A stretch of DNA of 41,070 nt from the NCBI GenBank assembly GCA_021162815.1, contig JAGGXW010000063.1, positions 1 through 41,070 on the forward strand, in the 5' to 3' direction. Source of the stretch: Thermoplasmata archaeon. Its GTDB lineage: Archaea > Thermoplasmatota > E2 > UBA202 > JdFR-43. The notes beneath the pieces are model-generated. The model worked only from the letters and a program-made list of their open reading frames with translations, did no database searches and was not told the DNA's origin. How positions within the stretch are numbered: position 1 is the stretch's first letter; every line of letters begins with the position of its first letter. Below, piece after piece: positions 10,087-40,021 of this stretch. Position numbers and translations under genes: made by a program.

Positions 10087-10266
10087 CTGCTGTGTTGAAT
10101 AAATCAGAATGAATAAGGAAATTGCCATGTAGGTGTTTATATTATGAACAATTGCCATGGCAATTATATGTTTCATTCTCATTGATTTTTTTCTGTATCT
10201 TGTGAATAATAATCTCCTGTTTTCCAATCCTCCAAATACTCCCTCTATTATTCCCCTAAATTTCTC
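10087..10266 (-). pseudogene. Transposase C-terminal segment lying in the +1 frame relative to 10256..10963
   Basis: The frame opening at 10266 reads EKFRGIIEGVFGGLENRRLLFTRYRKKSMRMKHIIAMAIVHNINTYM. This is the typical IS5-type C-terminal motif (IEGVFG...K/R-rich...hydrophobic-x-N-I/L). It has no stop inside the IS and runs through the terminal repeat to 9991. Confidence 0.6.
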
Positions 10267-10963: not shown

Positions 10964-11014
10964 AAAATTTTTCAACAAACCCTATTTGTTCAACACAGCA
11001 GCCTCAAACAAACA

Positions 11015-13896: not shown

Positions 13897-13996
13897 GTGC
13901 TATAAACATGAATAGTAATAAATTTTTTGTGCAAATTGCTTCTTTACCTTATACCTGCAATAAAATAAAGTTAAAAAGTGGTGATGCATTATCATC

Positions 13997-15139: not shown

Positions 15140-15140
15140 T

Positions 15141-15803: not shown

Positions 15804-15804
15804 T

Positions 15805-28722: not shown

Positions 28723-29534
28723 TTTTTCTCAATGTATTTTATTATTCCCTCAAAAACTTCTCTTCCATCTCCTCTCTTCCATTCCATATTCTGCCATTTG
28801 TGAAACGCCCTTTCTGGATGAGGCATCATTCCAAGAACATTTCCTTCAGGATTGCTTATTCCCGCTATATTATTATAACTCCCATTTGGGTTCCATGGGT
28901 AGGAAGCAAGATTGCCATTATAATCAACATATCTGAATACAGCGTATTTATCCGCCTCAGCAGCGTATTCCTCATTCCTGAATATTAGCTTTCCTTCAGC
29001 ATGAGCGCTTGGAATCATTGAGATTTTGCCAACAGGAATATTCTCCGTCAATTTACTATTGCCCTCATGCTCCACCAGAGTCTGCCTGCACTCAAATCTA
29101 TTGGAATCATTTGCAGCCAGTGCTGCTTCAGGCTCATCACTTATGCCGTTCAATGCCGGAAGAACACCAAGCTCTATTAAAACCTGAAAACCATTGCATA
29201 TCCCAACCACAGGATGGCCTTCCTCAATATATTTTATTAAATCCTTCATTACTGCCGCCTTCAGCCTTGCGGCAAATATGGCGCCTGCCCTGATGTAATC
29301 GCCTGCGGAAAATCCACCGGGAATGAATATGCCATGAAAATCAAATATGTTTGTTTTGCCTGCTTCCAGTTTTTTTAGATGAACATACTCGGGCTGCACT
29401 CCCATTTCCCTGAAGGCATAATAGCTTTCCTTCTCACAGTTAGTTCCTTCCATCTGAAGCAGTGCTATTCTTATATCATTTCTTTCCACAAAGGTAATTC
29501 CAACAGCATATAAAATTCTAATTGATTTACTCAA
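28716..29534 (-). CDS. purQ: Phosphoribosylformylglycinamidine synthase, glutaminase subunit
   Basis: GGFSAGDY, the nucleophile context VVGICNGFQVL and MMPHPER. The start is uncertain: TTG 29534 in the track; GTG 29489 gives the more typical N-terminus. Confidence 0.85.
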   Translation of the reverse strand: MSKSIRILYAVGITFVERNDIRIALLQMEGTNCEKESYYAFREMGVQPEYVHLKKLEAGKTNIFDFHGIFIPGGFSAGDYIRAGAIFAARLKAAVMKDLIKYIEEGHPVVGICNGFQVLIELGVLPALNGISDEPEAALAANDSNRFECRQTLVEHEGNSKLTENIPVGKISMIPSAHAEGKLIFRNEEYAAEADKYAVFRYVDYNGNLASYPWNPNGSYNNIAGISNPEGNVLGMMPHPERAFHKWQNMEWKRGDGREVFEGIIKYIEKKW

Positions 29535-31042
29535 TAAAACATGTCATCAATTCTATCCTTCTTTATGGCATTGCTTTTTAAATTTTTTATGAAATCGTCA
29601 TACCAGAATACCTTCAATGGGATAGCAAATGGCGCTCCTGGATAGGTGAGTATCGCCTCCCCCCTTTCCAGACTCTGTATCTCCATATCCATCTTTGATA
29701 TATCCTGTTTTGAAGAGCTTTTTAGCGTATTTCTATCATTTTCATCAGACAACCCCATTATGAAAAATGTATTGAACTGGCTAAGTATCTCAGGCCTTAT
29801 CAATCGTGGTTGCTGAGTTATTGCACACAATCCAACCTTAAATTTTCTTCCTTCTCTTGCAATTTGAGCAAATATGCCCTCATTTATTACCCTCTGAGCC
29901 TCCTCGACTGTTATCATAATTGGAGGAATCTTCCTGAATTTTTCCTTATCCCTGAAGATATTTTTATTTCTGTTCAATATTTTTCTCGCAAGTATCACAC
30001 TTATCAGCAGTTCTTCATATTCATACAGACCAGAAGTTTCAACAAGCACCATCTTTCCTGAATGAAGGTGATTTATTATGACATCTGTTGTGGATACAAC
30101 TTCATCATCATGAATCAAGCTGGATGATGAGATTCTTTCCGCTCTTCTCTTAAGTACAGAAAATGTCACCTCATGTATTCTGTTATCAAATTCATAGACG
30201 AGTTCATCCACATCCCTTTCAATCAATTCTTTAAGCCAGCTCTTTCCATATTTTCCATACATGGCATAAAGCGCATCCCTCTGAGCTTCGCTGAAATTAA
30301 AAATTTCTTCCATATCCTGAACGGCTATTTCCTCCTTTGATATGCTGAGGGTATTGGTGCCTTTTACAGGGTAGGGAGTATAAACAACCATCCTTTCCTC
30401 CGCCATTGGATGGTGCTTCAATCCTAAGCCTTCACCCCCCTCATAATACTCTCCATGAGGGTCTATGATGAGAATCCCATATCTCCCACTTTTCATTGCA
30501 CTTGCCGCCATAACACGCATCAAATTGCTTTTCCCCATTCCGGTGGTTGCAAATATTCCTATATGCTGGGGGATGAGTCCTCCTTTTATACCAATTTCCA
30601 CATTTATCGCCTTATCCCCGCTTCTCAATTTACCAACAATGATATCTCCCGTCTCCTTTCTTAAAAATTCATAATCCTCCTCTCTTGCCCTTCTAACAGC
30701 AGAAAAATGAGATGGAATTGTCTTCGGTTTTTTGAATGCCCCCTCCTCAACATAACCGAGGGGTTTGCACACTGCCAGCTTATACAGCCTTCTCTTCCTC
30801 TCCACAAACTCATATTTATGCCCTGCCTCATCAAGCGCCATCATCTCTCCGGCAGCCCGCAGCCCCCAGCTTTCTGCACCTTCATAGCCATAATGAATGT
30901 CTATAACACGGAGAAAGAAGATATTGCGGGTTCTTGCATCCTCCGCCACAAGTATCTCTCCTATTTTTACATCATCATCATATCCATAACGGAATATTAT
31001 TTCCCCTGCATTTTTGCCTATTATTCTTCCTATCATTATCAC
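29531..31042 (-). CDS. herA: HerA-family (FtsK/HerA superfamily, DUF87) hexameric ATPase/helicase
   Basis: N-terminal HAS-barrel-like region (GRIIGKNAGEIIF...IGEILVAEDA...FLRVIDI). Walker A GIFATTGMGKSN. Walker B-like PIMITVEEAQ. C-terminal LERGEAILTYPG. 503 aa. ATGA overlap with the nurA stop. Confidence 0.8.
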   Translation of the reverse strand: MIMIGRIIGKNAGEIIFRYGYDDDVKIGEILVAEDARTRNIFFLRVIDIHYGYEGAESWGLRAAGEMMALDEAGHKYEFVERKRRLYKLAVCKPLGYVEEGAFKKPKTIPSHFSAVRRAREEDYEFLRKETGDIIVGKLRSGDKAINVEIGIKGGLIPQHIGIFATTGMGKSNLMRVMAASAMKSGRYGILIIDPHGEYYEGGEGLGLKHHPMAEERMVVYTPYPVKGTNTLSISKEEIAVQDMEEIFNFSEAQRDALYAMYGKYGKSWLKELIERDVDELVYEFDNRIHEVTFSVLKRRAERISSSSLIHDDEVVSTTDVIINHLHSGKMVLVETSGLYEYEELLISVILARKILNRNKNIFRDKEKFRKIPPIMITVEEAQRVINEGIFAQIAREGRKFKVGLCAITQQPRLIRPEILSQFNTFFIMGLSDENDRNTLKSSSKQDISKMDMEIQSLERGEAILTYPGAPFAIPLKVFWYDDFIKNLKSNAIKKDRIDDMFY

Positions 31043-31815
31043 TCCTCCAGATAGAAATGGTAATCGTAAAATAAATCCTCCCAGTCCTCAATGCTCATGT
31101 ATTTCATTGCTCTCTTCATCATATCCTGCCTTATATAATTAGCCTCATCTCTCTTTATCTCCACCATTCTGTGAGCCATTGCCAGAGGATAAGGATATCC
31201 AATGTTTGTTATGTCATTGCAGTATGGAGCAATATATGAAAAAATATTCTCGTTGCATGTATCAACTCTGAAGACAAATTTTGATGATGGATGAAATTTC
31301 ACAGCATACACATTTTCCTCTATTCTGTAATACCATCTTTTATTCCTCATCATCCTTTCTCCTGCTCTTTTTATTGCATGAAATAAAGGAATTCCTTCCC
31401 GCTTAATAGAACTTTTTTTGCTTATTCCCGCAACATTTTCAGTACATTCATCTATTCTTCCATCAAAAAGGGTTATTGCATCTTCAAACACAAATTCTCT
31501 CTCTTTTTCCATCATCAACTTTTCCACAATGCTTTCATCCTCAACAATTTCTATATTACTTTCCACATGTTTTTCAATAATTTTATTTTTCTCTGCAACA
31601 ACATAACCCACTCTTATCAAAAATATATGGAAAGAGCCTCCATCGAGTAATTTAAAAAAACTTCCATCCACAGCTGCAATTTTTTTGCAGCAATTTTCAT
31701 CAAATTCTTTAAAGTCTGATAAATTAAAATCGATATTCAAATCTACAACTTGCCTGAGGTATTTTAATGCGTTCTCCAGGCCGGCTATCTCATCATTCAT
31801 CCAGTTCGTATTCAA
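31039..31815 (-). CDS. nurA: NurA-family nuclease (short, 258 aa)
   Basis: IAAVDGSF (catalytic Asp context), ITLFDGRI, GISKKSSIK and IGYPYPLAMAH (C-terminal catalytic His context) follow the NurA motif order. It lies immediately upstream of, and overlapping, herA. Confidence 0.7.
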   Translation of the reverse strand: MNTNWMNDEIAGLENALKYLRQVVDLNIDFNLSDFKEFDENCCKKIAAVDGSFFKLLDGGSFHIFLIRVGYVVAEKNKIIEKHVESNIEIVEDESIVEKLMMEKEREFVFEDAITLFDGRIDECTENVAGISKKSSIKREGIPLFHAIKRAGERMMRNKRWYYRIEENVYAVKFHPSSKFVFRVDTCNENIFSYIAPYCNDITNIGYPYPLAMAHRMVEIKRDEANYIRQDMMKRAMKYMSIEDWEDLFYDYHFYLEE

Positions 31816-31984
31816 GCACTATGTTACCTTGTTCATCAACAAGTCTTCTTATTCTGCCTTTCTTGTAGATTACCATATCCTCCCCAAAGGTATCAACTTC
31901 TACCCATCCCCTCATACTATTATTAATATGCCCGGCTTTAAATAAATTATTGTTTTTTTCAATACCGCCTTCTTTTCCTTGCAT
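31793..31984 (-). CDS. Small (63-aa) hypothetical protein preceding nurA
   Basis: ATG 31984 is preceded by GGAGGTGA. The sequence is MQGKEGGIEKNNNLFKAGHINNSMRGWVEVDTFGEDMVIYKKGRIRRLVDEQGNIVLEYELDE. No known motif. Its 3' end overlaps the nurA start. Confidence 0.5.
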   Translation of the reverse strand: MQGKEGGIEKNNNLFKAGHINNSMRGWVEVDTFGEDMVIYKKGRIRRLVDEQGNIVLEYELDE

Positions 31985-32002
31985 CAATCACCTCCTCTGT
32001 GT

Positions 32003-32530
32003 CTATTCTTCAAGAATAATGGCATAATATCCATCACCATTAAACACCAATTCCATTAAAAATTTTTCTTTGCCCCCTCCATAAATTATGTATCCGCTAT
32101 CTGTAATTTTGAATGCATCTCCTTCAATAACTCCCTTTCTGAATCCAAAGTCTTCGATCCATATTACATTCTTGCTTCTTCCATGAATTTTATATATTAT
32201 GCAATGCCCATCATTTATTATATTGTCTGCATCATCGGGAGAGCAACCAAAGGCAACATATTCAACAGATGAGGGAAGATAAAAAGAGAATTCTCTTCTA
32301 TCACCTATTACCTCTCTTGGGTTATTTAAATCCCTAACTTTTCCCTCCTTTTTCATTTCTTCAAGCTTTGATAAAATTTTTTGACATATATTCTCTACAT
32401 GTTTTTCATCTGCTATTTTCATTGCATTCTCGTATGCAATGAAAGATACAGCAGAAATAGCAGCAATCATTGTAACACTGATTAAGATTCTTATGGGAAT
32501 AAATGCCTCTCCTCTATTATCCTCCATCAT
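32003..32530 (-). CDS. Type IV pilin-like (class III signal peptide) protein, unknown function
   Basis: N-terminus MMEDNRG|EAFIPIRILISVTMIAAISAVSFIAY, a short charged leader ending in G followed by a hydrophobic helix. 175 aa. ATGA overlap with the upstream gene. Confidence 0.65.
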   Translation of the reverse strand: MMEDNRGEAFIPIRILISVTMIAAISAVSFIAYENAMKIADEKHVENICQKILSKLEEMKKEGKVRDLNNPREVIGDRREFSFYLPSSVEYVAFGCSPDDADNIINDGHCIIYKIHGRSKNVIWIEDFGFRKGVIEGDAFKITDSGYIIYGGGKEKFLMELVFNGDGYYAIILEE

Positions 32531-33159
32531 TTTTTACTCTTAAGCCCATATGCTAAAATTAATGCGGCAGCTATAGATGTCATTTCAAAAGCAGGGATAT
32601 CCTTTCCATTATTGGTATTACTATCCTCGCCATTATAATTCCCTTCCCATTCTTCAGGTAAAATATATGCTGCAATCACAGTATAATCTACATTTATATA
32701 GTCAAATCTATCATAGCGTGGAAGAAATTTTGTAAATTGGCAAAAGATGTTGAGGGGAGATATGCCATCTGTCCATTTTCCAGAAGGTCTTACTGTCCAT
32801 ACAAAGGTGTGTTTCTGACCCGCTGTTACATTTTTAAACACTAAATCTTCTTTAATTTTTGAAGGACCTTCTATAGCTTCGTAAGCATTAGAAATGTGGT
32901 ACAGCTTTACAATCATCTCTTCGCAGTCTTTCTTCACATACACAGTTACTTTAACCTGAAATGGTTGATGAACTTTTAGATTAGCATGAACTGTCGTATT
33001 TTCCCATTCGCCCCAATTTCCATCCTTATCCATAAAACGTACCCACGATTCAACTTTCCCATATTCACATTCATCCGCATCATCAGCTGTAACCAAATTC
33101 GGTACCAAAAGGGCTACTAATAAACCCGTCACAAAAACCCATTTTTTTATTATATCCAT
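32527..33159 (-). CDS. Sec-secreted surface protein with a PGF-CTERM-like (P-A-F) C-terminal sorting signal
   Basis: Signal peptide MDIIKKWVFVTGLLVALLVPNLVTA. C-terminus IPAFEMTSIAAALILAYGLKSKK parallels TPGFELIGMAVALLTAIVIAARRRK of the 328..3831 protein. Confidence 0.65.
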   Translation of the reverse strand: MDIIKKWVFVTGLLVALLVPNLVTADDADECEYGKVESWVRFMDKDGNWGEWENTTVHANLKVHQPFQVKVTVYVKKDCEEMIVKLYHISNAYEAIEGPSKIKEDLVFKNVTAGQKHTFVWTVRPSGKWTDGISPLNIFCQFTKFLPRYDRFDYINVDYTVIAAYILPEEWEGNYNGEDSNTNNGKDIPAFEMTSIAAALILAYGLKSKK

Positions 33160-33173
33160 TTATATCACCTCCT

Positions 33174-35972
33174 TTAGGGATTTTTTTCTTCAGGGTTAAT
33201 AGCCATATCTCCCACACCTGTACTACCTGGGGGAACAATGCCAATAGACAGTGTTTGAATACCAAATGAGAGAGGGGTACAATTCCCTATCTCAATTTCA
33301 TTTTGTGATTCATCTTTAATTCCTTCTATCATTTTCAATTGGTATATTTGACCAGTATGCCCAAAAAGTTCATTTGGTATGGCTTCATCAGATGCATCAA
33401 CAACCTTAAATATTTCCCAAGTGCCATTTATTTCTATATACCATACATTCAATGTAGCAACCCATGGGGTTGCAGGTGTTGGAAGAACCGGGAAACCAAA
33501 TGGGCCAAAAACACAAATATTCTTAACAGAAAATTTCCATTTCTCCTTTTTATTCTCAAGTTGCTTGTAATCAAAATATGCGGGATTTGCTGAAATAGCT
33601 ATAGTTATATTTTCTCTCCATTTTCCATCCAAGATAATATTATTTCCAAATTGAATTGTAGTTAATGATGAAACAAACCCCATATAATTTTGCATATTAT
33701 TTTTTATCTTGGCGTAATTTATATTTCCTGAATAGCCCTTTATTTTATCGTTCACATTTTTTTCAAGATCATTGTTTTTTACTTTCTTCAAATTTAATTC
33801 AATTTCATTTAAAAACCATAAGCGAATATCATAAATAACCTTACTTGCCGCGCTATGAAACATATTATTTTGGATATATTTATCGCTTTCAAGATAGTAG
33901 TTCTTTCTTGCTTCAAATTTTTTTATTAATATATCTGCATCTCTAGAGATTTCATCAAGCAAACCAATCCCATTTATGCCCTCACCATATTTTTCTTTAT
34001 ATTTATCATCTATTTCCTTATCATAATATTTGCTATCAACATCTTCTTTTATCTTCTCTATAATGTCCTCTAACTCCTTTACCACTTTTCCATTTCTGCC
34101 AAGTAACCAATCTATTGCATATCCCCTTATATCTATATTTATATCTGATTTGTCGCAACACTCACTCATACTATTATTCATCCAAAAACAAGAATATTTT
34201 GAGTAGTCTTTATTTTCTGGTGGTAAATTTAGTTCAGAATCTCTAGCATCTATGAAAAAATTATCAATGTATTTTATTAGCATATACTCCAAATTATCGT
34301 CTCTATACCCCTCATAATAACAAGATGTAAACACATTCGAGATATCTGGATGAGATGGAGTTGCATATAGTGTAAATTCACATTTTTCCTCAACATAATG
34401 AGTTACACCATATTTTCTCCATTCATATATCGGTTTTCCTTCATCATCTTCCCCAACTTTTTCCAAATGTAGCCATAACTCCTCCCTTCTCCATTTTGAT
34501 TTCCATCTTTCTATATGAGGTAACCCATCAGGTAAATTGCCCATACTAAGCTTATCTCCCTCCTCTAAAGACAATTCGATTCTATTCCATTCATCTGCAC
34601 TTTCCATTTTCCACTTTGGTGAAGAAACGTGCACATCATACCATTCATTTGTTATTACCCTTTTTATCCCTGTTCTAAAATATGCACTATAAACATCTTT
34701 AGTTTCTTCTGATATTTTATTCAAAACTTTGTTGTTTATATTTGTTTCATCCCATCTTTCTTCTATATTGTTTATATCCTTGTTATTATTATACTTGGGC
34801 ATATATAAAATATCCTTTGCAACTTTTAAAATCGTTTCCTTTCCCTCATCATTTTTATTTAATTGTTCGTAAAATCTGTTCTTTATCTCATCGGAGTCAG
34901 GATTTCTGATATCAGTCAACGTGGACTCAGATTGAGTAAATTTAAAATCTATCTGGCTACCAATATCCTTCAATGTAGGGGGAACTAATGATTCAATCCC
35001 TTTATTGGCTATCAAATCTTTAGCATTTATAGCAAGATACGCCATACTCACTGGATCAATACTATTATACACCAAATATTCAACAAGAAAAAGGGCCATA
35101 TTTATAACATACTGTAACCAAGAATTAGCAACTATATTTGTTATATCACCCCCACCATATTTCATCAGGGCTCTTGCCTCAGTATAGCCCATACTGACAG
35201 CAGTTGCAATACCATTCAAAGGAGAAAGTACCCCATTTATACTTTTATTATAAAAATTCGTCAATTCCATAAGAAATGGCAATCTAGAGGGTATAAGAGT
35301 TCTTAACTCTATTTCTTTTATGAAATGAGTGCCCGTTCTTACATTTGTGATATCTATTTTTAAACTTTTTATCCGGGCCTCCCAATATTCTGTGTATTCA
35401 ACATTTTTATCGCCAATAAGCCAGCTGAAATCGATTGTTCTTTTGATTTTTGCTTTCACTGGGATTAGTTCTACCATTTTCCAATTACCTACTGCATCAC
35501 CTTTATCGTTTAACACCACATTAATGGCATATTCTCCATTAGAGTACCTATTATTAAAAAATGTATTGACCAAATATTCATTAAATTTATATTTAATCAA
35601 ACTTCTTGCCCAATTCTTGTTAAATTCCATAATTTCGTCTAAAGTATCTATCTTGTTATCTTTGCTTTTTGAAAATTTTTCCGCCTCTTTGATATACTCT
35701 TCTGCCCCTGGATAATAATTTATACTGCTTTGTGTCACAGGACTTTTTCCCACAATACTAAAAGCATAAATACCTGCATAAGCCAATTCTCTTTTCATAT
35801 CTGCCTCAGCCGCTTGAATAAAGTGCTTTAGATTATCAGAGGCATCAGGAAAAATATTATCTGCTAATTCATGCTGAGTAACAATTACAAAATTTGTTGT
35901 TATGGCGCTTCCAATCATAATTATTGCCCCTATTACCGAAAATGGGACCCTACCATTTACATCTTTAAACAA
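33174..35972 (-). CDS. Giant (932-aa) pilin-like-leader protein, unknown function
   Basis: TTG start 35972 is preceded by GGAGGGG at suitable spacing. N-terminus MFKDVNG|RVPFSVIGAIIMIGSAITTNFVIV. The rest has no motif I recognise and is very Lys/Asn/Ile/Glu-rich. Confidence 0.7.
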   Translation of the reverse strand: MFKDVNGRVPFSVIGAIIMIGSAITTNFVIVTQHELADNIFPDASDNLKHFIQAAEADMKRELAYAGIYAFSIVGKSPVTQSSINYYPGAEEYIKEAEKFSKSKDNKIDTLDEIMEFNKNWARSLIKYKFNEYLVNTFFNNRYSNGEYAINVVLNDKGDAVGNWKMVELIPVKAKIKRTIDFSWLIGDKNVEYTEYWEARIKSLKIDITNVRTGTHFIKEIELRTLIPSRLPFLMELTNFYNKSINGVLSPLNGIATAVSMGYTEARALMKYGGGDITNIVANSWLQYVINMALFLVEYLVYNSIDPVSMAYLAINAKDLIANKGIESLVPPTLKDIGSQIDFKFTQSESTLTDIRNPDSDEIKNRFYEQLNKNDEGKETILKVAKDILYMPKYNNNKDINNIEERWDETNINNKVLNKISEETKDVYSAYFRTGIKRVITNEWYDVHVSSPKWKMESADEWNRIELSLEEGDKLSMGNLPDGLPHIERWKSKWRREELWLHLEKVGEDDEGKPIYEWRKYGVTHYVEEKCEFTLYATPSHPDISNVFTSCYYEGYRDDNLEYMLIKYIDNFFIDARDSELNLPPENKDYSKYSCFWMNNSMSECCDKSDINIDIRGYAIDWLLGRNGKVVKELEDIIEKIKEDVDSKYYDKEIDDKYKEKYGEGINGIGLLDEISRDADILIKKFEARKNYYLESDKYIQNNMFHSAASKVIYDIRLWFLNEIELNLKKVKNNDLEKNVNDKIKGYSGNINYAKIKNNMQNYMGFVSSLTTIQFGNNIILDGKWRENITIAISANPAYFDYKQLENKKEKWKFSVKNICVFGPFGFPVLPTPATPWVATLNVWYIEINGTWEIFKVVDASDEAIPNELFGHTGQIYQLKMIEGIKDESQNEIEIGNCTPLSFGIQTLSIGIVPPGSTGVGDMAINPEEKNP

Positions 35973-35975
35973 CCC

Positions 35976-36956
35976 TTATCCCCTCCATATTATTAAAGTA
36001 GCTTTAGCCCTGTAAAAATCAATATAGTTGAGTAAAAGCTCTATTATTTTATTTACAATACTCTCTCCCTCATCTATAATTCTGTCTATGACTGGAGAGA
36101 TATTTTCTTCAAAATAGGTGTTTATATTTTTAGCCAGTTTATCTTCTATTTCACTATCCATCATTCTACTTATTCTATCACTCAAAGGATCCATATGGAG
36201 ATGAGTGAGCACCTCATCTACAATTTTTGAACTATCATTCCCTACTGAGTCAATCATCACTTCTACCATATTTGACACAGTATCTTCTATGACCCGACTA
36301 ATTAACTTGTGAACTCTTTCTTTATCTATCTTCTCGTTATCTAATATATTTAACAGTTCATTTTCCAGTTCATTTATAGGATTACCCAATACTTCATTAA
36401 TAAAATTTGATGGCATTGAAAAATATGTAGTAGCCACATATATATCGCCATTGGGAGGCGTTTCTCCAACACAAATCTTTCCTCCAAAATCAATTCCTTC
36501 TATTGGCCTCCATATCACTGTTAAATTATAATTTAACCCCAATTGAGTATCAAAAAAATTTTTTAATAACTCTTTTGTTTTTTTAGTATAATCTTTTGTA
36601 AGAATGTTATATTGTTTTCCATTAAATTCTAACTGGGAAGAAAGACATTCTGTAACTATATCTGCGTATGTTTTATGAAGTTGTTCTCTTCTTAACAAAA
36701 TATCTGTCAATTGGTTTAATAAATGCTGCTTCTCAAATATCCCTCCAAGGTTTTTATATTCAAATTTTTCTACCCTACAATTCATTAGTTCAATCAAAAT
36801 ATCTTGAGCCATATCATTCATTTTTTTATCTGTATAAATCTCTCCGGGGACATCTGTAATTAGGGCCGGCAACATAATAACTCCAGCCATTGAGATCATT
36901 ATAGAGAATAACACAGCGTCATGCATAACAGATATCCCTCTTCTATCTTCAATCAT
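35976..36956 (-). CDS. Type IV pilin-like (class III signal peptide) protein, 326 aa, unknown function
   Basis: N-terminus MIEDRRG|ISVMHDAVLFSIMISMAGVIMLPAL. ATGA overlap with the upstream gene. Mostly helical-looking, acidic C-terminal part. Confidence 0.65.
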   Translation of the reverse strand: MIEDRRGISVMHDAVLFSIMISMAGVIMLPALITDVPGEIYTDKKMNDMAQDILIELMNCRVEKFEYKNLGGIFEKQHLLNQLTDILLRREQLHKTYADIVTECLSSQLEFNGKQYNILTKDYTKKTKELLKNFFDTQLGLNYNLTVIWRPIEGIDFGGKICVGETPPNGDIYVATTYFSMPSNFINEVLGNPINELENELLNILDNEKIDKERVHKLISRVIEDTVSNMVEVMIDSVGNDSSKIVDEVLTHLHMDPLSDRISRMMDSEIEDKLAKNINTYFEENISPVIDRIIDEGESIVNKIIELLLNYIDFYRAKATLIIWRG

Positions 36957-37414
36957 TTTACCCCGCCAATAACAATTGTTAACTTCCCAGGCAATACATG
37001 TGCCTCGTCAATATACACTGGAACATTTTTAGAGAGAGCAATTTCATCATCCACATCATTTAGCATTCCCCATGTGATCCTGTCATGTTTAACTGAAAGA
37101 ATTAACTGATAATTAATGCCATAGACTTCTGGTAGAGAGGTATGGGAAAATTGGATAAATTTACTTTTGTTTATCATCCCTTCTCCCAGTATAACACCAT
37201 CTTTGTAAAGAAAACTATCTGGAGAAAATATTTTATTAAAAATATAATCAGCCATTTGATATTTTTCAATTCTATTCTCTATATCCTTATTTGATATATA
37301 TACTCCCCCTACAATTAAAAAAATTATGGAGATCCCAATTGTCACAACAATAATCGCTGTAATTGATGAAAATTCTTCTGAAATTCCTCGCTCATCACTC
37401 CATATTCTCATCAT
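36953..37414 (-). CDS. Type IV pilin-like (class III signal peptide) protein, 153 aa
   Basis: N-terminus MMRIWSDERG|ISEEFSSITAIIVVTIGISIIFLIVGG. ATGA overlap with the upstream gene. Confidence 0.65.
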   Translation of the reverse strand: MMRIWSDERGISEEFSSITAIIVVTIGISIIFLIVGGVYISNKDIENRIEKYQMADYIFNKIFSPDSFLYKDGVILGEGMINKSKFIQFSHTSLPEVYGINYQLILSVKHDRITWGMLNDVDDEIALSKNVPVYIDEAHVLPGKLTIVIGGVK

Positions 37415-38016
37415 TTCCCTCCATATAGAATTACGATACTTTCACAACTATAATCATCAAAACATATGATGCAATTTTCCACAGTCAGCGCATCCCCTTC
37501 CTTCAAAGTTAAAGGATTTACTGCCAAAGAATTTACAGATGCCTCATACTCTTGTCCAAGATAACTTTTTATTTTATCTTTAAAACCAGAGACATAAAGA
37601 TTATTTTTTTTAGGATAAGATTTATCCAAAACCCTATAGAGATCTGTAGATGTTTTCCATTCATCATCTGGTTTTCTTACAAAAACCTTACAAGGTATTC
37701 TCTTAGCAGAACTTACAATTCCAAAAAAATTATCTTTTACCCTAACATTTACAAAAGATGATGATATGTTTATTTTATAATCCCTATCAATAGGAATCGA
37801 TATATTGATTTTTGTTGGGATAAAAGATGCATCTGCAGATGTTATTGCCCCTATAATCTTCAGACTAATACTATCTGCTGCAATTTGACTTTGCCATCCA
37901 CCATAGTATGGAACTGCCACAGCAATAGAAAGAAGAACTCCTGCAACAATAACTATGCTAAGTTGATTCATTAACCATGAAATCGTCCCATATTTATCTT
38001 CCCATAATCTCCACAT
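37411..38016 (-). CDS. Type IV pilin-like (class III signal peptide) protein, about 201 aa
   Basis: Re-started at ATG 38016 (Met29 of the track ORF). GGAGGG lies 8 nt upstream. The resulting N-terminus MWRLWEDKYG|TISWLMNQLSIVIVAGVLL parallels MMRIWSDERG|IS... of the next gene. Confidence 0.6.
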   Translation of the reverse strand: MWRLWEDKYGTISWLMNQLSIVIVAGVLLSIAVAVPYYGGWQSQIAADSISLKIIGAITSADASFIPTKINISIPIDRDYKINISSSFVNVRVKDNFFGIVSSAKRIPCKVFVRKPDDEWKTSTDLYRVLDKSYPKKNNLYVSGFKDKIKSYLGQEYEASVNSLAVNPLTLKEGDALTVENCIICFDDYSCESIVILYGGK

Positions 38017-38449
38017 ACCTTTTTCCCTCCTTGATGACCAAAGAGAGAATAACTTCTCTGCAATTACTATCAATAATTGCATACTCTTTTCCGTTTCCAC
38101 AGAAACTTACATTTGAATAAAATATTCTTTTATCATTCCACTCAGTTAGAATATAATATCTGTTAGATAGATCTTTATTTTTGCTTCCGTAAACCACTTC
38201 CCTTATTCCTTTTGGAAATTTGGTTTTAATTTTCTGTACACTTCCTTCATCTCCTGCAACATACATTATTTCAGCAATATTTGCAATTTTCTTTGCTTCT
38301 TTTATTGCTATATTTATCTCATGCTCTCTTTCCATTCTAATTGAGATATGTATTAACACTCCAATAACTGCACTTCCCACCACAATTGCAACAGCGTATT
38401 GTATTGCTAAACCTGTTATACCATTATTGTCCGCCATTTTTACCAGCAT
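37994..38449 (-). CDS. Type IV pilin-like (class III signal peptide) protein, about 150 aa
   Basis: N-terminus MLVKMADNNG|ITGLAIQYAVAIVVGSAVIGVLI. ATG 38437 is an alternative start. It overlaps the end of the upstream gene. Confidence 0.6.
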   Translation of the reverse strand: MLVKMADNNGITGLAIQYAVAIVVGSAVIGVLIHISIRMEREHEINIAIKEAKKIANIAEIMYVAGDEGSVQKIKTKFPKGIREVVYGSKNKDLSNRYYILTEWNDKRIFYSNVSFCGNGKEYAIIDSNCREVILSLVIKEGKRYVEIMGR

Positions 38450-39011
38450 TTTTATTTAACAGACATGTTTTTACAGCAACTGAAAGAAGTAATATAAATC
38501 CTATGATAAATATAAAGTAAGGAGACATAACGACAGCCCTATTCCCAGATAGCAATAACAGTGCTATTAAAATAGTAAACAGCCCCCCTACAATGCCCGT
38601 TATTTCTATTGAAAATTCTATTCCCCTAAGTTTTAAAGTAGTATCTCTTCTTTCCAATCTATTCAATCTTTTTTCTATATTAGTCATCTTAACAGAGAAA
38701 TCATTATTTTTTGATGAATTCCTTTTGAGAGAGATGGTTACAGGTTCTTTCTTTTCAAATTCCTCCATTCTTTTTTCAATAATATTCAATCTTTTTTCAA
38801 TTTTCTTCATCAAATCATCTGGAATATTTTCTTTTTCCTTCACTGAGGACGAATACTGAAACACAGTACCTTTAAAAGGTTCTTTAGACAATCTCCTCTC
38901 TACTGCGTCCAATCTTTTTTCTATGCTTTTAATACTTTGCTCCAATTTCTGTATCCATGTGGAAAGAGTAAACTCATCATTTTTCATTTCCTTCTCATCT
39001 TTTTTTCTCAT
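38424..39011 (-). CDS. Membrane-anchored coiled-coil protein with three 41-residue repeats
   Basis: Charged N-terminal 125 aa or so carry IEKRLDAVERRL, IEKRLNIIEKRM and IEKRLNRLERRD, starting at residues 30, 71 and 112. Two C-terminal hydrophobic helices (ITGIVGGLFTILIALLLL, YFIFIIGFILLLSVAV). ATGA overlap with the upstream gene. Confidence 0.65.
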   Translation of the reverse strand: MRKKDEKEMKNDEFTLSTWIQKLEQSIKSIEKRLDAVERRLSKEPFKGTVFQYSSSVKEKENIPDDLMKKIEKRLNIIEKRMEEFEKKEPVTISLKRNSSKNNDFSVKMTNIEKRLNRLERRDTTLKLRGIEFSIEITGIVGGLFTILIALLLLSGNRAVVMSPYFIFIIGFILLLSVAVKTCLLNKNAGKNGGQ

Positions 39012-39412
39012 TTCCTCACAACCTTTATCAAGTTTCTAGCCTCATAATGAGGATAGTCATTAGCTATAACATATATTGTCAAATAACCTTCATACTGATC
39101 TTTAGGAAGAGAAGGAGTAAAGTATAGGGTAACTTCGCCATTCTCTTCAGTCTTTCCGGATATCACTTTATCCCCATCATACTCAGGAATTATCATAACA
39201 TTAGCATTTTTTACTGGATTTTCTGATTGGTCCATAATTTTGAAATGTATTTTATTTTCTCTTCCATCATATATCACTTCAGGATTGAATTCTTCTATCT
39301 TTAGATGTTTATTTAATGCAACACCATAATCATAAACGTAATTCAATCCAATAGCTAATGCTACTCCACCTATAGCAAGGGCCACCAGCAATCTTAATGG
39401 CATGCCCAGCAT
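39008..39412 (-). CDS. N-terminally anchored beta-domain protein, paralogue of 39414..39848 without the charged leader
   Basis: MLGMPLRLLVALAIGGVALAIGL aligns with EGLPMHLIIIVVIAGATLGL of the preceding protein. Shared D-x-x-x-NPVK-x-A-x-V and EG(W/Y)L motifs in a CarboxypepD_reg/Ig-like beta domain. Confidence 0.65.
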   Translation of the reverse strand: MLGMPLRLLVALAIGGVALAIGLNYVYDYGVALNKHLKIEEFNPEVIYDGRENKIHFKIMDQSENPVKNANVMIIPEYDGDKVISGKTEENGEVTLYFTPSLPKDQYEGYLTIYVIANDYPHYEARNLIKVVRK

Positions 39413-39413
39413 T

Positions 39414-39848
39414 TTATGAATACAATAACACTGCGTGTTCTTCTTTTATCGGGCTATTGTCATAACCAGCGTGACTTATGCTCATTTCAAGCCATCCTTC
39501 ATGGGTATTTTCTGGTACATTTACTTGTATTGTTAATTTTGTTTTCCCACTTTCATTTGTCTTATTGGCTATATTCCCTCCATATCCCCATATATGTACC
39601 AGAGCGCCTTTTACAGGATTGTTATGGTCATCCGTAACTGTAACAGTTACTGAGATTATCTGAGGATTTTGTGTTATCTCAATGCTGGAAGGCTCAACAG
39701 TATAATGTAGATGGTTTGGATTTGCCATAGAAAACCAATACAAAATAAGACCAAGAGTCGCCCCTGCAATCACAACAATTATTATAAGATGCATGGGCAA
39801 TCCTTCAATTCCTCTGTTATCCTTAATCCATTTCTTTATACCCACCAT
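39414..39848 (-). CDS. Type IV pilin-like (class III signal peptide) protein with an Ig/CarboxypepD_reg-like domain; first gene of the cluster
   Basis: GGAGG lies 8 nt upstream of ATG 39848. N-terminus MVGIKKWIKDNRG|IEGLPMHLIIIVVIAGATLGLIL. Beta domain VTVTDDHNNPVKGALVHIWGYGG...NESGKTKLTI. Confidence 0.7.
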   Translation of the reverse strand: MVGIKKWIKDNRGIEGLPMHLIIIVVIAGATLGLILYWFSMANPNHLHYTVEPSSIEITQNPQIISVTVTVTDDHNNPVKGALVHIWGYGGNIANKTNESGKTKLTIQVNVPENTHEGWLEMSISHAGYDNSPIKEEHAVLLYS

Positions 39849-40021
39849 CTTATTTGCCTCCTATACATAAATAATTAATTTATTATTAAATATTTCTAAA
39901 GCTTAATAAAACAACAGAATATCACATCATGGGTTATCAAAATTTAACGGAAACAATTACACCAATATATCAGGTTAACAACAGCTTACTAAGATTTATA
40001 TAACCTATATCATTTTGCATT

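What the first reader, a model, noticed from the sequence alone, without database searches (positions are those of the whole stretch)
32003..39848. Ten-gene cluster of pilin-like-leader proteins of unknown function, with no assembly motor in the window
Seven of ten consecutive minus-strand ORFs start with the same architecture: a short charged leader ending in D-x-x-G, then a hydrophobic helix of about 20 residues.
- KDNRG|IEGLPMHLIIIVVIAG (start 39848)
- ADNNG|ITGLAIQYAVAIVVG (38449)
- EDKYG|TISWLMNQLSIVIVAG (38016)
- SDERG|ISEEFSSITAIIVVTIG (37414)
- EDRRG|ISVMHDAVLFSIMISMAG (36956)
- KDVNG|RVPFSVIGAIIMIGS (35972)
- EDNRG|EAFIPIRILISVTMIAA (32530)

This is the hallmark of archaeal class III (prepilin-peptidase-processed) signal peptides. 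The other three members are a leaderless paralogue, a membrane-anchored repeat coiled-coil protein and a Sec/PGF-CTERM-like surface protein. Four junctions are ATGA stop/start overlaps (39008-39011, 37411-37414, 36953-36956, 32527-32530) and the other gaps are 1-15 nt, which suggests one translationally coupled unit. Apart from Ig/CarboxypepD_reg-like beta domains in the first two proteins, I recognise no domain in the mature parts. The window contains no PilB/ArlI-type ATPase, no PilC/TadC/ArlJ platform protein and no PibD/FlaK/EppA peptidase. Caveat: stand-alone pilin sets served by a motor encoded elsewhere are known in archaea, so a missing motor alone is not novel.
Basis: partly seen in the sequence, partly recalled or inferred. 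Interest (0 to 1): 0.75.

Follow-up and report, generated by a model that had tools for sequence, protein, structure and literature searches.

The report
Motor-less archaeal pilin gene set
This is a conserved ten-gene operon of a Thermoplasmatota archaeon that encodes pilin-like surface proteins; they are related to an already catalogued but functionally unstudied archaeal type IV pilus system, and the assembly motor is encoded elsewhere, so it is an interesting variant and not a new kind of machine.

Summary
Ten co-directional minus-strand genes occupy 32003-39848. Seven start with a short D-x-x-G leader followed by a hydrophobic helix, against 1 of 32 other genes in the window.

Orthologues show that eight of the ten families carry this leader. 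The same module, in the same gene order, occurs in at least 13 other Thermoplasmatota loci at 23-82% identity. No PilB or PilC gene lies next to it in any of them.

The cluster is not an orphan. Five members match Pfam DUF7286, DUF7284, DUF7285, DUF7311 (two paralogues) and DUF7310. In haloarchaea these families sit in one operon with a T2SSE ATPase and a TadC-like protein, next to cetZ2. That operon is the "subclade 4F" / pilB2-pilC2 type IV pilus-like system of Makarova et al. 2016, whose function is still unknown.

Three parts are additions in this version:
- a pair of Ig-domain pilins;
- a further pilin-like protein (g5);
- a MAST/PGF-CTERM surface protein.

Best reading (about 0.65): this is a structural, minor-pilin and adhesin gene set that a prepilin peptidase and a PilB/PilC motor encoded in trans process and assemble. 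It is a new variant of a known kind, of moderate interest.

The parts
39414..39848 (-). g1: prepilin-like protein (144 aa). It has the leader MVGIKKWIKDNRG|IEGLP, an N-terminal helix and a single Ig-like beta-sandwich. It is a candidate filament subunit.
   Evidence: - Pfam gives Big_1, Invasin_D3 and CarboxypepD_reg, all below cut-off.
- The AF2 model has pLDDT 88.4, with a helix at 18-41 and eight strands.
- Foldseek returns generic Ig/MG domains. The Pyrobaculum arsenaticum pilin 6w8u aligns over 131 columns at rank 15.
- 101 homologues of about 150 aa were found; all those with an organism name are Thermoplasmatota.
- It is 82% identical to its L001 orthologue, the best-conserved gene of the module.
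39008..39412 (-). g2: paralogue of g1 (134 aa), with the same helix and Ig-like domain. It starts at MLGMPLRL, one residue into the mature sequence of its orthologues, so it has no leader.
   Evidence: - g1 and g2 profiles match at hhalign 99.7%, E 3.6e-27.
- Orthologues in 8 other genomes keep a leader (DARG|VLGLP, DRRG|VLGLP, DKKA|VTELP and similar). Only the window and its closest relative L001 lack it.
- DUF7382 scores below cut-off in the window; in L002 the precomputed Pfam listing shows an unmarked hit, E <= 1e-5.
38424..39011 (-). g3: cytoplasmic coiled-coil protein (195 aa) with three IEKRLxxxE[KR]R repeats (at residues 30, 71 and 112) and a C-terminal two-helix membrane hairpin. It is DUF7310-like (arCOG07564-like). 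It has no signal peptide.
   Evidence: - Pfam DUF7310 E 1.6e-4, below cut-off.
- hhalign against the haloarchaeal DUF7310 protein gives 75% probability, E 2.5e-5, over 100 columns.
- Repeats and TM segments at 131-149 and 157-175.
- The RLDA[VI]ERRLS motif is conserved in most orthologues and recurs as RLDAVE in the haloarchaeal protein of L015.
37994..38449 (-). g4: prepilin-like protein (151 aa), leader MLVKMADNNG|ITGLA. It is a paralogue of g10 (DUF7311 / arCOG10216-like).
   Evidence: - g4 versus g10 profiles: hhalign 97.9%, E 6.5e-13, 140 columns.
- Orthologues exist in the methanogen-type loci L019 (96.4%) and L018 (89.9%).
- The -2 residue is N in the window and K/R in most orthologues.
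37411..38016 (-). g5: prepilin-like protein (201 aa from the ATG at 38016), leader MWRLWEDKYG|TISWL. It has no family assignment. It occupies the position of DUF7283 in the haloarchaeal operon.
   Evidence: - An AGGAGG ribosome-binding site precedes 38016.
- Orthologues are present in 9 of the 10 complete modules found by blastp (not detected in L004) and, by position and leader, in L020.
- It matches L018 (97.1%) and L019 (88.6%) proteins.
- There is no detectable similarity to DUF7283 (0.4%).
- The -2 residue is Y in the window.
36953..37414 (-). g6: prepilin-like protein (153 aa), leader MMRIWSDERG|ISEEF. DUF7285-like (arCOG05166-like).
   Evidence: - hhalign against the haloarchaeal DUF7285 protein: 83.4%, E 8.4e-6, full length.
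- Also 99.9% to the L016 protein and 95.8% to the L019 protein.
- The motif G|[IV][ST]EEF[ST]S[LI]PA is nearly invariant in orthologues.
35976..36956 (-). g7: prepilin-like protein (326 aa), leader MIEDRRG|ISVMHDAVLF. DUF7284 (arCOG06291-like).
   Evidence: - Pfam DUF7284 scores 29.5 bits against a cut-off of 27.
- hhalign gives 90.6% to the haloarchaeal protein and 99.3-100% to the L016, L018 and L019 proteins.
- A 13-sequence profile has no PDB relative by sequence; best E 0.049.
33174..35972 (-). g8: large prepilin-like surface protein (932 aa), leader MFKDVNG|RVPFSVIG. DUF7286 (arCOG02945-like, called "adhesin-like"). It is a candidate tip or adhesin component.
   Evidence: - Pfam DUF7286 scores 78.6 bits against a cut-off of 27.
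- 257 representatives reach E<=1e-3 among 1.84 billion.
- The N-terminal (about 1-325) and C-terminal (about 675-930) parts are conserved. In the closest full-length relatives these are the two matched stretches, which suggests a more variable middle.
- The most conserved stretch is GPxGxPxLPxPxxPWxxTxNxW, at about 824-844.
- The AF2 model has pLDDT 73. No PDB or BFVD fold match was found; best E 0.1 and 1.4e-3, with TM <= 0.07.
32527..33159 (-). g9: Sec-secreted MAST / sarcinarray-domain protein (210 aa) with a PGF-CTERM-type tail (IPAFEMTSIAAALILAYGLKSKK).
   Evidence: - NCBIfam TIGR04209 sarcinarray scores 63.6 bits against a cut-off of 45. TIGR04204 MAST_ArtA_sort gives E 3.4e-14, below its cut-off.
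- Most orthologues carry IPGFE or LPGFE before the terminal helix.
- A MAST gene follows DUF7286 in L016, L018 and L019 too.
- It is absent from the nine-gene version in L020.
32003..32530 (-). g10: prepilin-like protein (175 aa), leader MMEDNRG|EAFIPIRIL. DUF7311-like (arCOG10216-like). That arCOG is the predicted major pilin of subclade 4F in Makarova et al. 2016.
   Evidence: - Pfam DUF7311 E 0.037, below cut-off.
- hhalign against the haloarchaeal DUF7311 protein: 85.6%, E 5.5e-6, 146 columns.
- It is a paralogue of g4.
- The arCOG mapping rests on identical gene order and sizes.
39849..40021 (-). AT-rich 173-nt intergenic region upstream of g1, shared with the divergent DUF4870 gene. It is the presumed promoter region of the module.
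   Evidence: The sequence was read directly. A GGAGG ribosome-binding site lies 8 nt before the g1 ATG. No promoter was mapped; this is inference only.

Best explanation
The cluster is the structural half of a type IV pilus-like (type IV filament, TFF) system of a Thermoplasmatota archaeon. It is related to the haloarchaeal pilB2/pilC2 "subclade 4F" system, but it is encoded without its ATPase, platform protein and peptidase.

**Proposed mechanism**
1. *Shown.* Eight of the ten gene families encode proteins with a short charged leader, a G or A at -1 and a hydrophobic helix of about 20 residues.
2. *Inferred.* A PibD/EppA-type prepilin peptidase encoded elsewhere removes the leader. The mature N-terminal helices stay in the membrane.
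3. *Inferred.* A PilB/PilC pair encoded in trans extracts the helices and packs them into a helical fibre or a short stub.

**Proposed roles (all inferred)**
- The small Ig-domain pilins g1 and g2, and/or the DUF7311 paralogues g4 and g10, form the shaft.
- g5, g6 and g7 act as minor pilins that prime or cap assembly.
- They carry the 932-aa DUF7286 protein g8 as a distal adhesin-like head. This would work like the bacterial minor-pilin/PilY1 set.
- g3 is a membrane-anchored cytoplasmic coiled coil that links the base to cytoplasmic partners.
- g9 is a separately secreted surface protein that an archaeosortase anchors.

The likely output is surface adhesion or cell-cell contact.
For: - Seven of ten genes carry the leader-plus-helix architecture, against 1 of 32 elsewhere in the window.
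- The motif is conserved in orthologues of eight families at 23-45% identity.
- Gene content and order are identical in L001-L014. L020 has a nine-gene version.
- DUF7286 (78.6 bits) and DUF7284 (above cut-off) are present. Profile matches link g6 to DUF7285, g10 and g4 to DUF7311, and g3 to DUF7310.
- In a haloarchaeal genome these families form one operon with a T2SSE ATPase and a multi-TM protein, next to CetZ.
- That operon has the same order and gene sizes as the Haloarcula hispanica subclade-4F locus in the supplement of PMC4858521: arCOG07564, 10216, 01818, 01814, 04673, 05166, 06291, 02945. The 4F/cetZ2 link is described in 10.64898/2026.04.22.720090 and PMC9856176.
- The g1 model is an N-terminal helix plus an Ig-like head, the architecture of archaeal pilins.
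- Trans arrangements have precedent:
  - Cuniculiplasma divulgatum pilin genes lie about 500 kb from their motor operon (PMC12448462).
  - Haloarchaeal PilA pilins are assembled by PilB3/C3 in trans (PMC4858521).
  - Aciduliprofundum has two ATPases in a locus with a single pilin gene.
- Table S5 of PMC4858521 already lists arCOG02945, and an adjacent protein with a "PAF C-terminal sorting motif", as T4P-like components found outside motor operons.
- The Hbt. salinarum pil-2 operon, whose PilB2 belongs to arCOG01818, is co-transcribed and induced 8.5-fold in adherent cells (PMC4292770).
Against: - No motor or peptidase could be shown for this organism. The window appears to be the whole contig on record: 41,070 nt is the longest contig listed for its proteins.
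- None of about 13 Thermoplasmatota loci, nor the methanogen-type loci L018 and L019, has a PilB or PilC within the flank held (up to 10 kb where the contig allows; several loci are short). The link to a motor therefore rests on haloarchaea alone.
- Three window leaders lack a charged -2 residue (g4 N, g5 Y, g8 N), and g2 has lost its leader altogether.
- Matches to DUF7310, DUF7311 and DUF7285 are weak (75-86% hhalign probability against single sequences). g5 shows no similarity to DUF7283.
- No filament, function or processing has been shown experimentally for any member of the 4F family (PMC9856176).
- The roles assigned to individual genes are analogy, not evidence.
Confidence: 0.65

Rival explanations
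1. Motor-independent envelope complex. The class-III-like N-termini, cleaved or not, act only as membrane anchors. The ten proteins form a static surface or envelope complex, for example an adhesion patch or an envelope scaffold in lineages with unusual cell surfaces. No ATPase-driven extrusion is involved.
For: - The module is never next to a PilB or PilC gene in about 13 Thermoplasmatota loci or in L018 and L019.
- It travels with a PGF-CTERM surface protein.
- The charged -2 residue is lost in three leaders and the whole leader is lost in g2.
- g8 has no recognisable pilin head and no fold match.
Against: - Homologues of five to six members sit inside a pilB/pilC operon in haloarchaea.
- The [KR]-[GA] motif directly before the helix is conserved across eight families. 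An ordinary signal anchor would not need it.
- Unlinked motors are the rule in related archaea.
Confidence: 0.17
2. The adjacent HerA-family ATPase (29531-31042) and NurA (31039-31815) are the missing motor. On this reading the operon is a new HerA-driven secretion or assembly system.
For: - The genes lie on the same strand, only 15 nt downstream, through a 64-aa ORF that is translationally coupled to NurA and HerA.
- HerA belongs to the FtsK/HerA superfamily and gives a weak TrwB_AAD_bind hit.
Against: - blastp with NurA and HerA finds no counterpart in any of the 13 related loci.
- In L020, L004, L006, L007, L010 and L011 the gene after g10 is unrelated.
- NurA-HerA is a standard archaeal DNA-end-resection pair (established knowledge).
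- The tight spacing simply continues into purQ and endA.
Confidence: 0.02
3. Decaying remnant. The cluster is a pilin set left behind after the loss of its motor. It is no longer assembled and is drifting towards pseudogenes.
For: - g2 has lost its leader and three leaders have atypical -2 residues in the window/L001 lineage.
- The module has a lower GC content than the rest of the window, 0.327 against 0.386.
Against: - All ten ORFs are intact, with ribosome-binding sites and coupled stops and starts.
- The same ten genes are intact and collinear in genomes with GC from 31 to 55% and only 25-45% identity. That implies long-term purifying selection.
- One ORF split of g8 was seen, only in L012.
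Confidence: 0.05
4. The N-termini are ordinary Sec signal anchors, and the D-x-x-G resemblance to class III signals is coincidental.
For: No predictor such as FlaFind could be run here. Three of the seven leaders fail the charged -2 rule (PMC4371748).
Against: - Enrichment is 7 of 10 against 1 of 32.
- The G/A position directly before the helix is conserved in eight families across phylum-level divergence, including haloarchaeal DUF7286 (DDDRG|RVPF) and DUF7284 (DRA|VSTV).
- Makarova et al. mark arCOG06291 as FlaFind-positive.
Confidence: 0.05

Closest known systems
Haloarchaeal pilB2/pilC2 "subclade/subsystem 4F" type IV pilus-like locus next to cetZ2 (Makarova, Koonin & Albers 2016, PMC4858521; Sivabalasarma & Albers 2026 preprint; Brown & Duggin 2023, PMC9856176)
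   Same: - It has homologues of g3 (DUF7310/arCOG07564), g4 and g10 (DUF7311/arCOG10216), g6 (DUF7285/arCOG05166), g7 (DUF7284/arCOG06291) and g8 (DUF7286/arCOG02945).
- The sub-order 7285-7284-7286 is the same.
- The G|RVPF and G/A|[IV]S N-termini are the same.
- Function is unknown in both.
   Different: - The haloarchaeal operon contains the T2SSE ATPase (arCOG01818) and TadC (arCOG01814) between DUF7311 and DUF7283. The Thermoplasmatota module contains neither.
- The window has extra genes: the Ig-domain pilin pair g1/g2, a second DUF7311 paralogue, g5 and a MAST/PGF-CTERM protein.
- DUF7311 sits at the end of the module here, not at the start. There is no cetZ neighbour.
Motor-less DUF7286 + MAST pairs of Methanosarcinales and Methanocella: arCOG02945 with adjacent arCOG05173 ("PAF C-terminal sorting motif"), Table S5 of PMC4858521; locus L019 in the complete genome CP058215.1
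   Same: - DUF7286 is followed directly by a MAST protein with a PGF/PAF tail.
- Homologues of g4, g5, g6 and g7 lie nearby.
- No ATPase or TadC lies within 10 kb.
   Different: - In L019 the set is split into two divergent groups separated by hisS.
- No counterpart of g1, g2, g3 or g10 was identified among the small ORFs examined in L019.
- The DUF7286 proteins are larger (1,160-1,350 aa) and carry a helical insertion of about 230 residues.
CdiP pilus of Cuniculiplasma divulgatum (Thermoplasmatales), solved by cryo-EM (PMC12448462)
   Same: - It comes from the same phylum.
- The pilin has an 11-residue class III leader, an N-terminal helix and a beta-rich head.
- The pilin genes lie about 500 kb from the ATPase/platform operon. 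This shows that trans assembly occurs in this lineage.
   Different: - It has only two pilin genes (cdiPA, cdiPB) and an Aap-like machinery.
- It has no DUF7284 or DUF7286 type partners.
- Sequence relatedness to g1/g2 was not tested here.
Bacterial minor-pilin/PilY1 operon (Pseudomonas fimU-pilVWXY1E) and T2SS GspH-K tip complex. This is an analogy from established knowledge, not from a test.
   Same: - It is a separately encoded operon of four to five small pilin-like proteins plus one protein of about 1,000 aa.
- Together these prime assembly and sit at the fibre tip.
- The motor and peptidase are encoded elsewhere.
   Different: - There is no sequence or fold similarity.
- PilY1 uses an ordinary Sec signal, whereas g8 itself carries the class-III-like N-terminus.
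- The system is archaeal and has no secretin.
Archaeal type IV pilins with Ig-like heads, for example the Pyrobaculum arsenaticum pilus (PDB 6w8u)
   Same: g1 is 144 aa and is modelled as an N-terminal helix plus one Ig-like sandwich. 6w8u (140 aa) aligns over 131 columns.
   Different: The match is weak (E 4.8e-3, TM 0.34-0.35, rank 15) and no better than generic Ig/MG domains. No sequence similarity was found in the PDB beyond invasin-type Ig domains.

Membership tests
Archaeal class III (type IV prepilin-like) signal peptide proteins | A short charged N-terminal leader, with the processing site before (not after) a hydrophobic H-domain of about 20 residues | tested here: met
   - Leaders are 7-13 residues long and are followed by a helix in g1, g4, g5, g6, g7, g8 and g10.
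- The feature is conserved in orthologues. In other genomes g2 has it too.
Archaeal class III (type IV prepilin-like) signal peptide proteins | G, A or S at position -1 (PMC4371748) | tested here: met
   G occupies -1 in all seven window leaders. Orthologues have G or A.
Archaeal class III (type IV prepilin-like) signal peptide proteins | A charged residue at position -2, reported as critical for archaeal prepilin peptidases (PMC4371748) | tested here: inconclusive
   - R occupies -2 in g1, g6, g7 and g10.
- The residue is N in g4, Y in g5 and N in g8 in the window.
- Most orthologues of those three have K or R.
Archaeal class III (type IV prepilin-like) signal peptide proteins | Actual cleavage by PibD, FlaK or EppA, and presence of such a peptidase in the genome | not testable with these tools
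   The organism is known only from this 41-kb contig. No A24 peptidase is in the window.
Subclade/subsystem 4F archaeal type IV pilus-like system (Makarova et al. 2016) | arCOG01818-type secretion ATPase with its cognate arCOG01814 TadC in the locus | tested here: not met
   - Pfam finds no T2SSE or T2SSF in the window.
- tblastn with the L015 PilB2 and PilC2 finds nothing in the window or in 20 other loci.
- The immediate neighbours in related loci are unrelated genes.
Subclade/subsystem 4F archaeal type IV pilus-like system (Makarova et al. 2016) | Large surface protein arCOG02945 (Pfam DUF7286) preceded by pilin arCOG06291 (DUF7284) | tested here: met
   - DUF7286 scores 78.6 bits and DUF7284 scores 29.5 bits, both against a cut-off of 27.
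- The two genes are adjacent and in the same order as in L015.
- The arCOG-to-DUF mapping is inferred from identical order and sizes.
Subclade/subsystem 4F archaeal type IV pilus-like system (Makarova et al. 2016) | The signature coiled-coil protein arCOG07564 (DUF7310) and the pilins arCOG10216 (DUF7311) and arCOG05166 (DUF7285) | tested here: inconclusive
   - All Pfam hits are below cut-off.
- hhalign probabilities are 75%, 85.6% and 83.4%, with E between 5e-6 and 2.5e-5, over most of each protein's length.
- These values support homology but do not settle it.
Subclade/subsystem 4F archaeal type IV pilus-like system (Makarova et al. 2016) | Pilin arCOG04673 (DUF7283) | tested here: not met
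   g5 holds the equivalent position. No similarity was found for g4, g5 or g6 (hhalign probability <= 0.4%).
MAST-domain / PGF-CTERM (archaeosortase A) surface proteins | A MAST/sarcinarray domain | tested here: met
   TIGR04209 scores 63.6 bits against a cut-off of 45. PF27849 MAST is recorded on orthologues.
MAST-domain / PGF-CTERM (archaeosortase A) surface proteins | A C-terminal PGF motif, a hydrophobic helix and a basic tail, together with an archaeosortase in the genome | tested here: inconclusive
   - The window has a PAF variant (IPAFEMTSIAAALILAYGLKSKK). Most orthologues have IPGFE or LPGFE.
- TIGR04204 scores below its cut-off.
- Whether an archaeosortase is present cannot be tested.

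The most novel reading that the evidence does not exclude
The free-standing module found in Thermoplasmatota and methanogen-type loci is the ancestral, self-sufficient form of this system. On this reading it is a set of class-III-signal proteins that builds a surface structure without any dedicated PilB/PilC motor, or with a non-canonical energy source. The haloarchaeal 4F operon then arose later, when an ATPase/TadC pair was inserted into the set. That would make it a type IV-filament-derived surface assembly that has escaped the canonical ATPase/platform requirement.
Probability: 0.1. Interest if true: 0.75.

Novelty: new variant of a known kind. Interest (0 to 1): 0.36.

Why it matters
- **Evolution of the 4F system.** The pilin and accessory set of the haloarchaeal 4F (pilB2/pilC2) system exists as a fixed, free-standing nine- or ten-gene module in Thermoplasmatota. 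A reduced form occurs in the complete genome CP058215.1 and in two uncultured loci of unknown lineage (L016, L018). This gives concrete support to the "hybrid origin" idea of Makarova et al. 2016, in which a euryarchaeal pilin set combined with an imported ATPase/TadC.
- **A blind spot in current surveys.** Censuses of archaeal type IV filament systems that start from the ATPase and platform genes will miss such sets.
- **A defined target.** The work defines a minimal conserved core, g4-g5-g6-g7-g8 with or without MAST, around a large protein that has no match among solved (PDB) or predicted viral (BFVD) structures. No function is known for that core.
- **Limits.** This is not a new principle. 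Pilins encoded away from their motors are common, and nothing here shows what the structure does.

Tried and rejected
- **Word-indexed protein search with a 36-sequence DUF7286 alignment** returned only the five close relatives already known, so one search was wasted.
- **tblastn of a haloarchaeal DUF7286 against PLSDB plasmids** gave no match.
- **Two alignments were too diverse for the genome scan**. A 9-sequence alignment worked but reached only Thermoplasmatota.
- **Fold search of the g8 model** against the PDB and BFVD gave nothing meaningful (TM <= 0.07). The fold is either new or the model (pLDDT 73) is not good enough.
- **PDB sequence search with g1/g2 and g7 profiles** gave only invasin-type Ig domains (E 3e-4) and noise.
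- **HerA/NurA as motor** was rejected because the adjacency is not conserved.
- **Horizontal-transfer island.**
  - In favour, GC is lower in the module in the window, L007 and L004. An integrase or a transposase lies upstream in L001 and L002.
  - Against, L020 has the module beside the same FeoB, purQ and endA neighbourhood as the window.
  - Vertical inheritance within this clade is therefore at least as likely, and the question is left open.
- **Bindosome-like substrate-binding proteins** were rejected because no SBP domain is present.
- **Literature search for the DUF names** found no paper.
- **The Szabo 2007 FlaFind paper is not held**, so the exact FlaFind rule could not be applied.
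- **Looking up the window's own contig** for sample information found no record.
It was repeated with database homologues.

Full report
**1. The observation**

Their lengths are 144, 134, 195, 151, 201, 153, 326, 932, 210 and 175 aa. I call them g1 to g10, from 39848 down to 32003.

The seven quoted N-termini are correct. I applied a mechanical rule: D-x-x-[GA] ending within the first 16 residues, followed within 8 residues by a 15-residue stretch of mean hydropathy >=1.8. Seven of the ten cluster genes pass. Only one of 32 other genes in the window passes, and that one is the polytopic transporter TrkH.

The four ATGA stop/start overlaps are real. Two details need correction:
- g3/g4 overlap by 26 nt and g4/g5 by 23 nt, so those two junctions are not small gaps.
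- The same tight co-directional packing continues beyond g10. It runs through a 64-aa ORF, NurA, HerA, a purQ-like amidotransferase and the tRNA-splicing endonuclease. Spacing alone therefore does not delimit the unit.

The window has no T2SSE, T2SSF/TadC or A24 peptidase. Pfam on 42 ORFs found none. tblastn with a haloarchaeal PilB2 and PilC2 found nothing even at E<=10.

**2. The unit is defined by conservation**

The large protein g8 has few close relatives. Still, 257 representatives reach E<=1e-3 in a library of 1.84 billion proteins.

I looked at loci around its relatives and at a scan of one genome per GTDB species. These gave 13 further loci, all from Thermoplasmatota MAGs. Wherever the contig is long enough, the same ten genes occur in the same order. 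Identities to the window range from 23% to 82%. The host genomes have module GC contents from 31% to 55%.

A relative whose flanks resemble the window's (FeoB, purQ, endA) carries a nine-gene version without g9.

The flanks differ in nearly every locus. They include a C25 peptidase, CARDB proteins, a NosD-like beta-helix protein, a THUMP methyltransferase, PPDK and FAA hydrolase. NurA and HerA are never next to the module elsewhere. No PilB- or PilC-like gene occurs in any of these flanks.

**3. The leaders in the orthologues**

Alignments of the orthologues show a conserved N-terminus of the form [DN]-x-[KR]-[GA], then [IV]-x-x-[LF]-P or a family-specific motif. Examples are G|IEGLPM in g1, G|ISEEFTSLPA in g6, G|ISxMQDA in g7 and G|RVPFA in g8.

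g2 is leaderless in the window but has a normal leader in eight other genomes (DARG|VLGLP and similar). Only the window and its closest relative L001 begin at MLGMP/MLDMP, that is, essentially at the mature N-terminus. Eight of the ten families are therefore prepilin-like.

By the published criteria (G/A/S at -1; a charged -2 residue critical in archaea; PMC4371748), all seven window leaders pass at -1. Only four pass at -2 (R in g1, g6, g7 and g10). g4, g5 and g8 have N, Y and N there, although most of their orthologues have K or R. This lineage-specific relaxation is unexplained, as is the loss of the g2 leader.

**4. What the proteins are**

- **g7 and g8.** Pfam places g8 in DUF7286 (78.6 bits) and g7 in DUF7284 (29.5 bits). 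The cut-off is 27 for both.
- **g9.** NCBIfam places g9 in the sarcinarray/MAST family (63.6 bits against a cut-off of 45). Most g9 orthologues end in a clear PGF-CTERM signal, IPGFE followed by a helix and a basic tail. The window has a PAF variant.
- **g3, g6 and g10.** Profiles built from the Thermoplasmatota orthologues match single haloarchaeal proteins over most of their length. g6 matches DUF7285 (83%, E 8e-6). g10 matches DUF7311 (86%, E 5.5e-6). g3 matches DUF7310 (75%, E 2.5e-5). g7 matches DUF7284 (91%).
- **Paralogues.** g4 is a paralogue of g10 (97.9%), and g1 of g2 (99.7%).
- **g5.** It has orthologues in the methanogen-type loci but no detectable link to DUF7283.
- **g3 architecture.** It has three IEKRLxxxE[KR]R repeats and two C-terminal TM helices, and no signal peptide. 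The coiled coil should therefore be cytoplasmic.
- **g1 structure.** It models confidently (pLDDT 88) as an N-terminal helix plus one Ig-like sandwich. Fold hits are generic Ig/MG domains. The Pyrobaculum arsenaticum pilin aligns over its full length, but weakly.
- **g8 structure.** It models moderately (pLDDT 73) as a mixed helical and beta protein. It has no fold match in the PDB or BFVD.

**5. The link to a known system**

A haloarchaeal DUF7286 gene lies in the following operon, directly next to a CetZ tubulin gene:

DUF7310 - DUF7311 - T2SSE ATPase (629 aa) - a 567-aa protein with seven hydrophobic TM-like segments - DUF7283 - DUF7285 - DUF7284 - DUF7286 - DUF5791

The supplement of Makarova, Koonin & Albers 2016 lists, for Haloarcula hispanica, an operon with the same order and gene sizes:

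arCOG07564 - arCOG10216 - arCOG01818 (ATPase) - arCOG01814 (TadC) - arCOG04673 - arCOG05166 - arCOG06291 - arCOG02945 - arCOG04674

Most of these rows carry the label "subclade_4F". The ATPase row is labelled "non_specific", and arCOG02945 and arCOG04674 carry no subclade label. The main text describes 4F as a hybrid of a crenarchaeal-type ATPase/TadC with euryarchaeal pilins. It names a unique intracellular coiled-coil component.

Other papers add context:
- A 2026 preprint notes that 4F loci co-localise with CetZ2 and contain an adhesin-like arCOG02945 protein.
- Brown & Duggin 2023 call the same locus the pilB2/C2 regulon and state that its role is unknown.
- In Hbt. salinarum the pil-2 operon, whose PilB2 belongs to arCOG01818, is co-transcribed and induced in adherent cells. 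Its function was not established.

The window's genes are thus relatives of the non-motor genes of this system. The DUF-to-arCOG equivalence is my inference from synteny, not a direct test.

**6. Motor-less versions elsewhere**

- In the complete genome CP058215.1, DUF7286+MAST and a divergent g4-g5-g6-DUF7284 group flank hisS, with no ATPase within 10 kb.
- Metagenomic loci L016 and L018 show g6-g7-g8-MAST cores.
[quoted passage not shown] It places them among components similar to T4P parts that are not in the motor operons.
- In the Thermoplasmatales species Cuniculiplasma divulgatum, the pilin genes of a pilus solved by cryo-EM lie about 500 kb from the ATPase/platform operon.
- Aciduliprofundum has a locus with two ATPases and only one pilin gene.

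Trans-encoded motors are therefore the expected state in this part of the archaeal tree.

**7. Mechanism**

*Shown:*
- a conserved operon of eight prepilin-like proteins, one cytoplasmic coiled-coil membrane protein and one Sec/PGF-CTERM protein;
- homology of five to six families to the pilin and accessory genes of an operon that contains a type IV pilus ATPase;
- a pilin-like architecture for g1.

*Inferred:*
- A PibD/EppA-type peptidase removes the leaders.
- A trans-encoded PilB/PilC pair assembles the proteins.
- The shaft comes from g1/g2 (small, Ig-headed, first in the operon, best conserved). Alternatively it comes from the DUF7311 paralogues g4/g10, whose arCOG was predicted to be the 4F major pilin.
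- g5, g6 and g7 act as minor pilins that present the 932-aa g8 at the tip.
- g3 acts as a cytoplasmic scaffold.
- g9 is an archaeosortase-anchored partner and is dispensable in L020.

I put about 0.65 on this trans-motor pilus or pseudopilus reading. I put about 0.17 on a motor-independent anchored surface complex. Small probabilities go to a decaying remnant, a chance resemblance and a HerA-driven system.

**8. Novelty and score**

The component families and the system type are already catalogued, and pilin sets away from motors are familiar. What appears undescribed is the fixed, expanded nine- or ten-gene free-standing module of Thermoplasmatota. No paper in the library mentions the DUF names. 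The paper I found on Thermoplasmatales pili describes a different system.

The module also bears on the hybrid origin of the haloarchaeal 4F operon. I rate it a new variant of a known kind, with interest about 0.36. It would be worth more if whole-genome profiling showed carriers without any motor.

Noticed in passing
window 39008-39412 (g2); L001:6517-6921: In the window and its closest relative, g2 starts essentially at the mature N-terminus (MLGMP / MLDMP). Orthologues in eight other genomes keep a normal leader (for example DARG|VLGLP). This is a naturally "pre-processed" pilin-like protein. In the same lineage g5 and g8 have also lost the charged -2 residue.
   Followed up: partly
window 29531-31987: Directly downstream of g10 lies a translationally coupled trio: a 64-aa ORF (31793-31987, with a GGAGG ribosome-binding site), NurA and a HerA/DUF87 ATPase. 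No Mre11 or Rad50 is in the window. The trio is not found next to the module in any related locus.
   Followed up: partly
window 32003-39848 versus the rest; L004, L007: The module has a lower GC content than its surroundings in the window (0.327 against 0.386), in L007 (0.48 against 0.595) and in L004 (0.552 against 0.596), but not in five other loci. A phage-type integrase lies 2.5 kb upstream in L001, and a Y2 transposase lies directly upstream in L002. L020 keeps the window's FeoB/purQ/endA neighbourhood. Whether the module is mobile is unresolved.
   Followed up: partly
window 13033-17247 and 328-3831: The window holds other surface proteins:
- a 480-aa secreted protein with no Pfam match but an HELGH zinc-protease-like motif (15805-17247);
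- a lipoprotein-like Big_7 protein (15141-15803);
- a 287-aa protein with a signal peptide and a C-terminal anchor (13033-13896);
- a 1,167-aa protein with a lamin-tail domain and a CarboxypepD_reg domain (328-3831).
   Followed up: no
L021:10001-11320 and 14132-16860: A stand-alone g1/g2-type Ig pilin gene (138 aa) is followed by a 249-aa coiled-coil membrane protein. Three KaiC-like ATPase genes lie a few kb away, on a 110-kb Thermoplasmatota-like contig. Makarova et al. predicted KaiC-family ATPases to be regulators of type IV pili.
   Followed up: no
L004:1414-5523, L004:14405-15994, L007:14407-16812, L021:19502-20417: Large secreted proteins with C25 peptidase, Propeptide_C25 or CARDB domains lie immediately next to the module in two genomes, and near a stand-alone g1-type pilin in a third. 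This may be a recurring surface-protein neighbourhood.
   Followed up: no
window 33174-35972, residues about 812-856; alignment A1: The most conserved stretch of DUF7286 is a proline/tryptophan motif, GPxGxPxLPxPxxPWxxTxNxWxIxVxG. The model has low confidence just before it. Haloarchaeal and methanogen-type members carry a helical insertion of about 230 residues immediately upstream of it. Its role is unknown.
   Followed up: no
window 10256-10978: A 240-aa ORF has no Pfam match and overlaps the start of the nadA gene. Its basic, Lys/Arg-rich sequence could be a degraded mobile-element gene or a spurious ORF.
   Followed up: no
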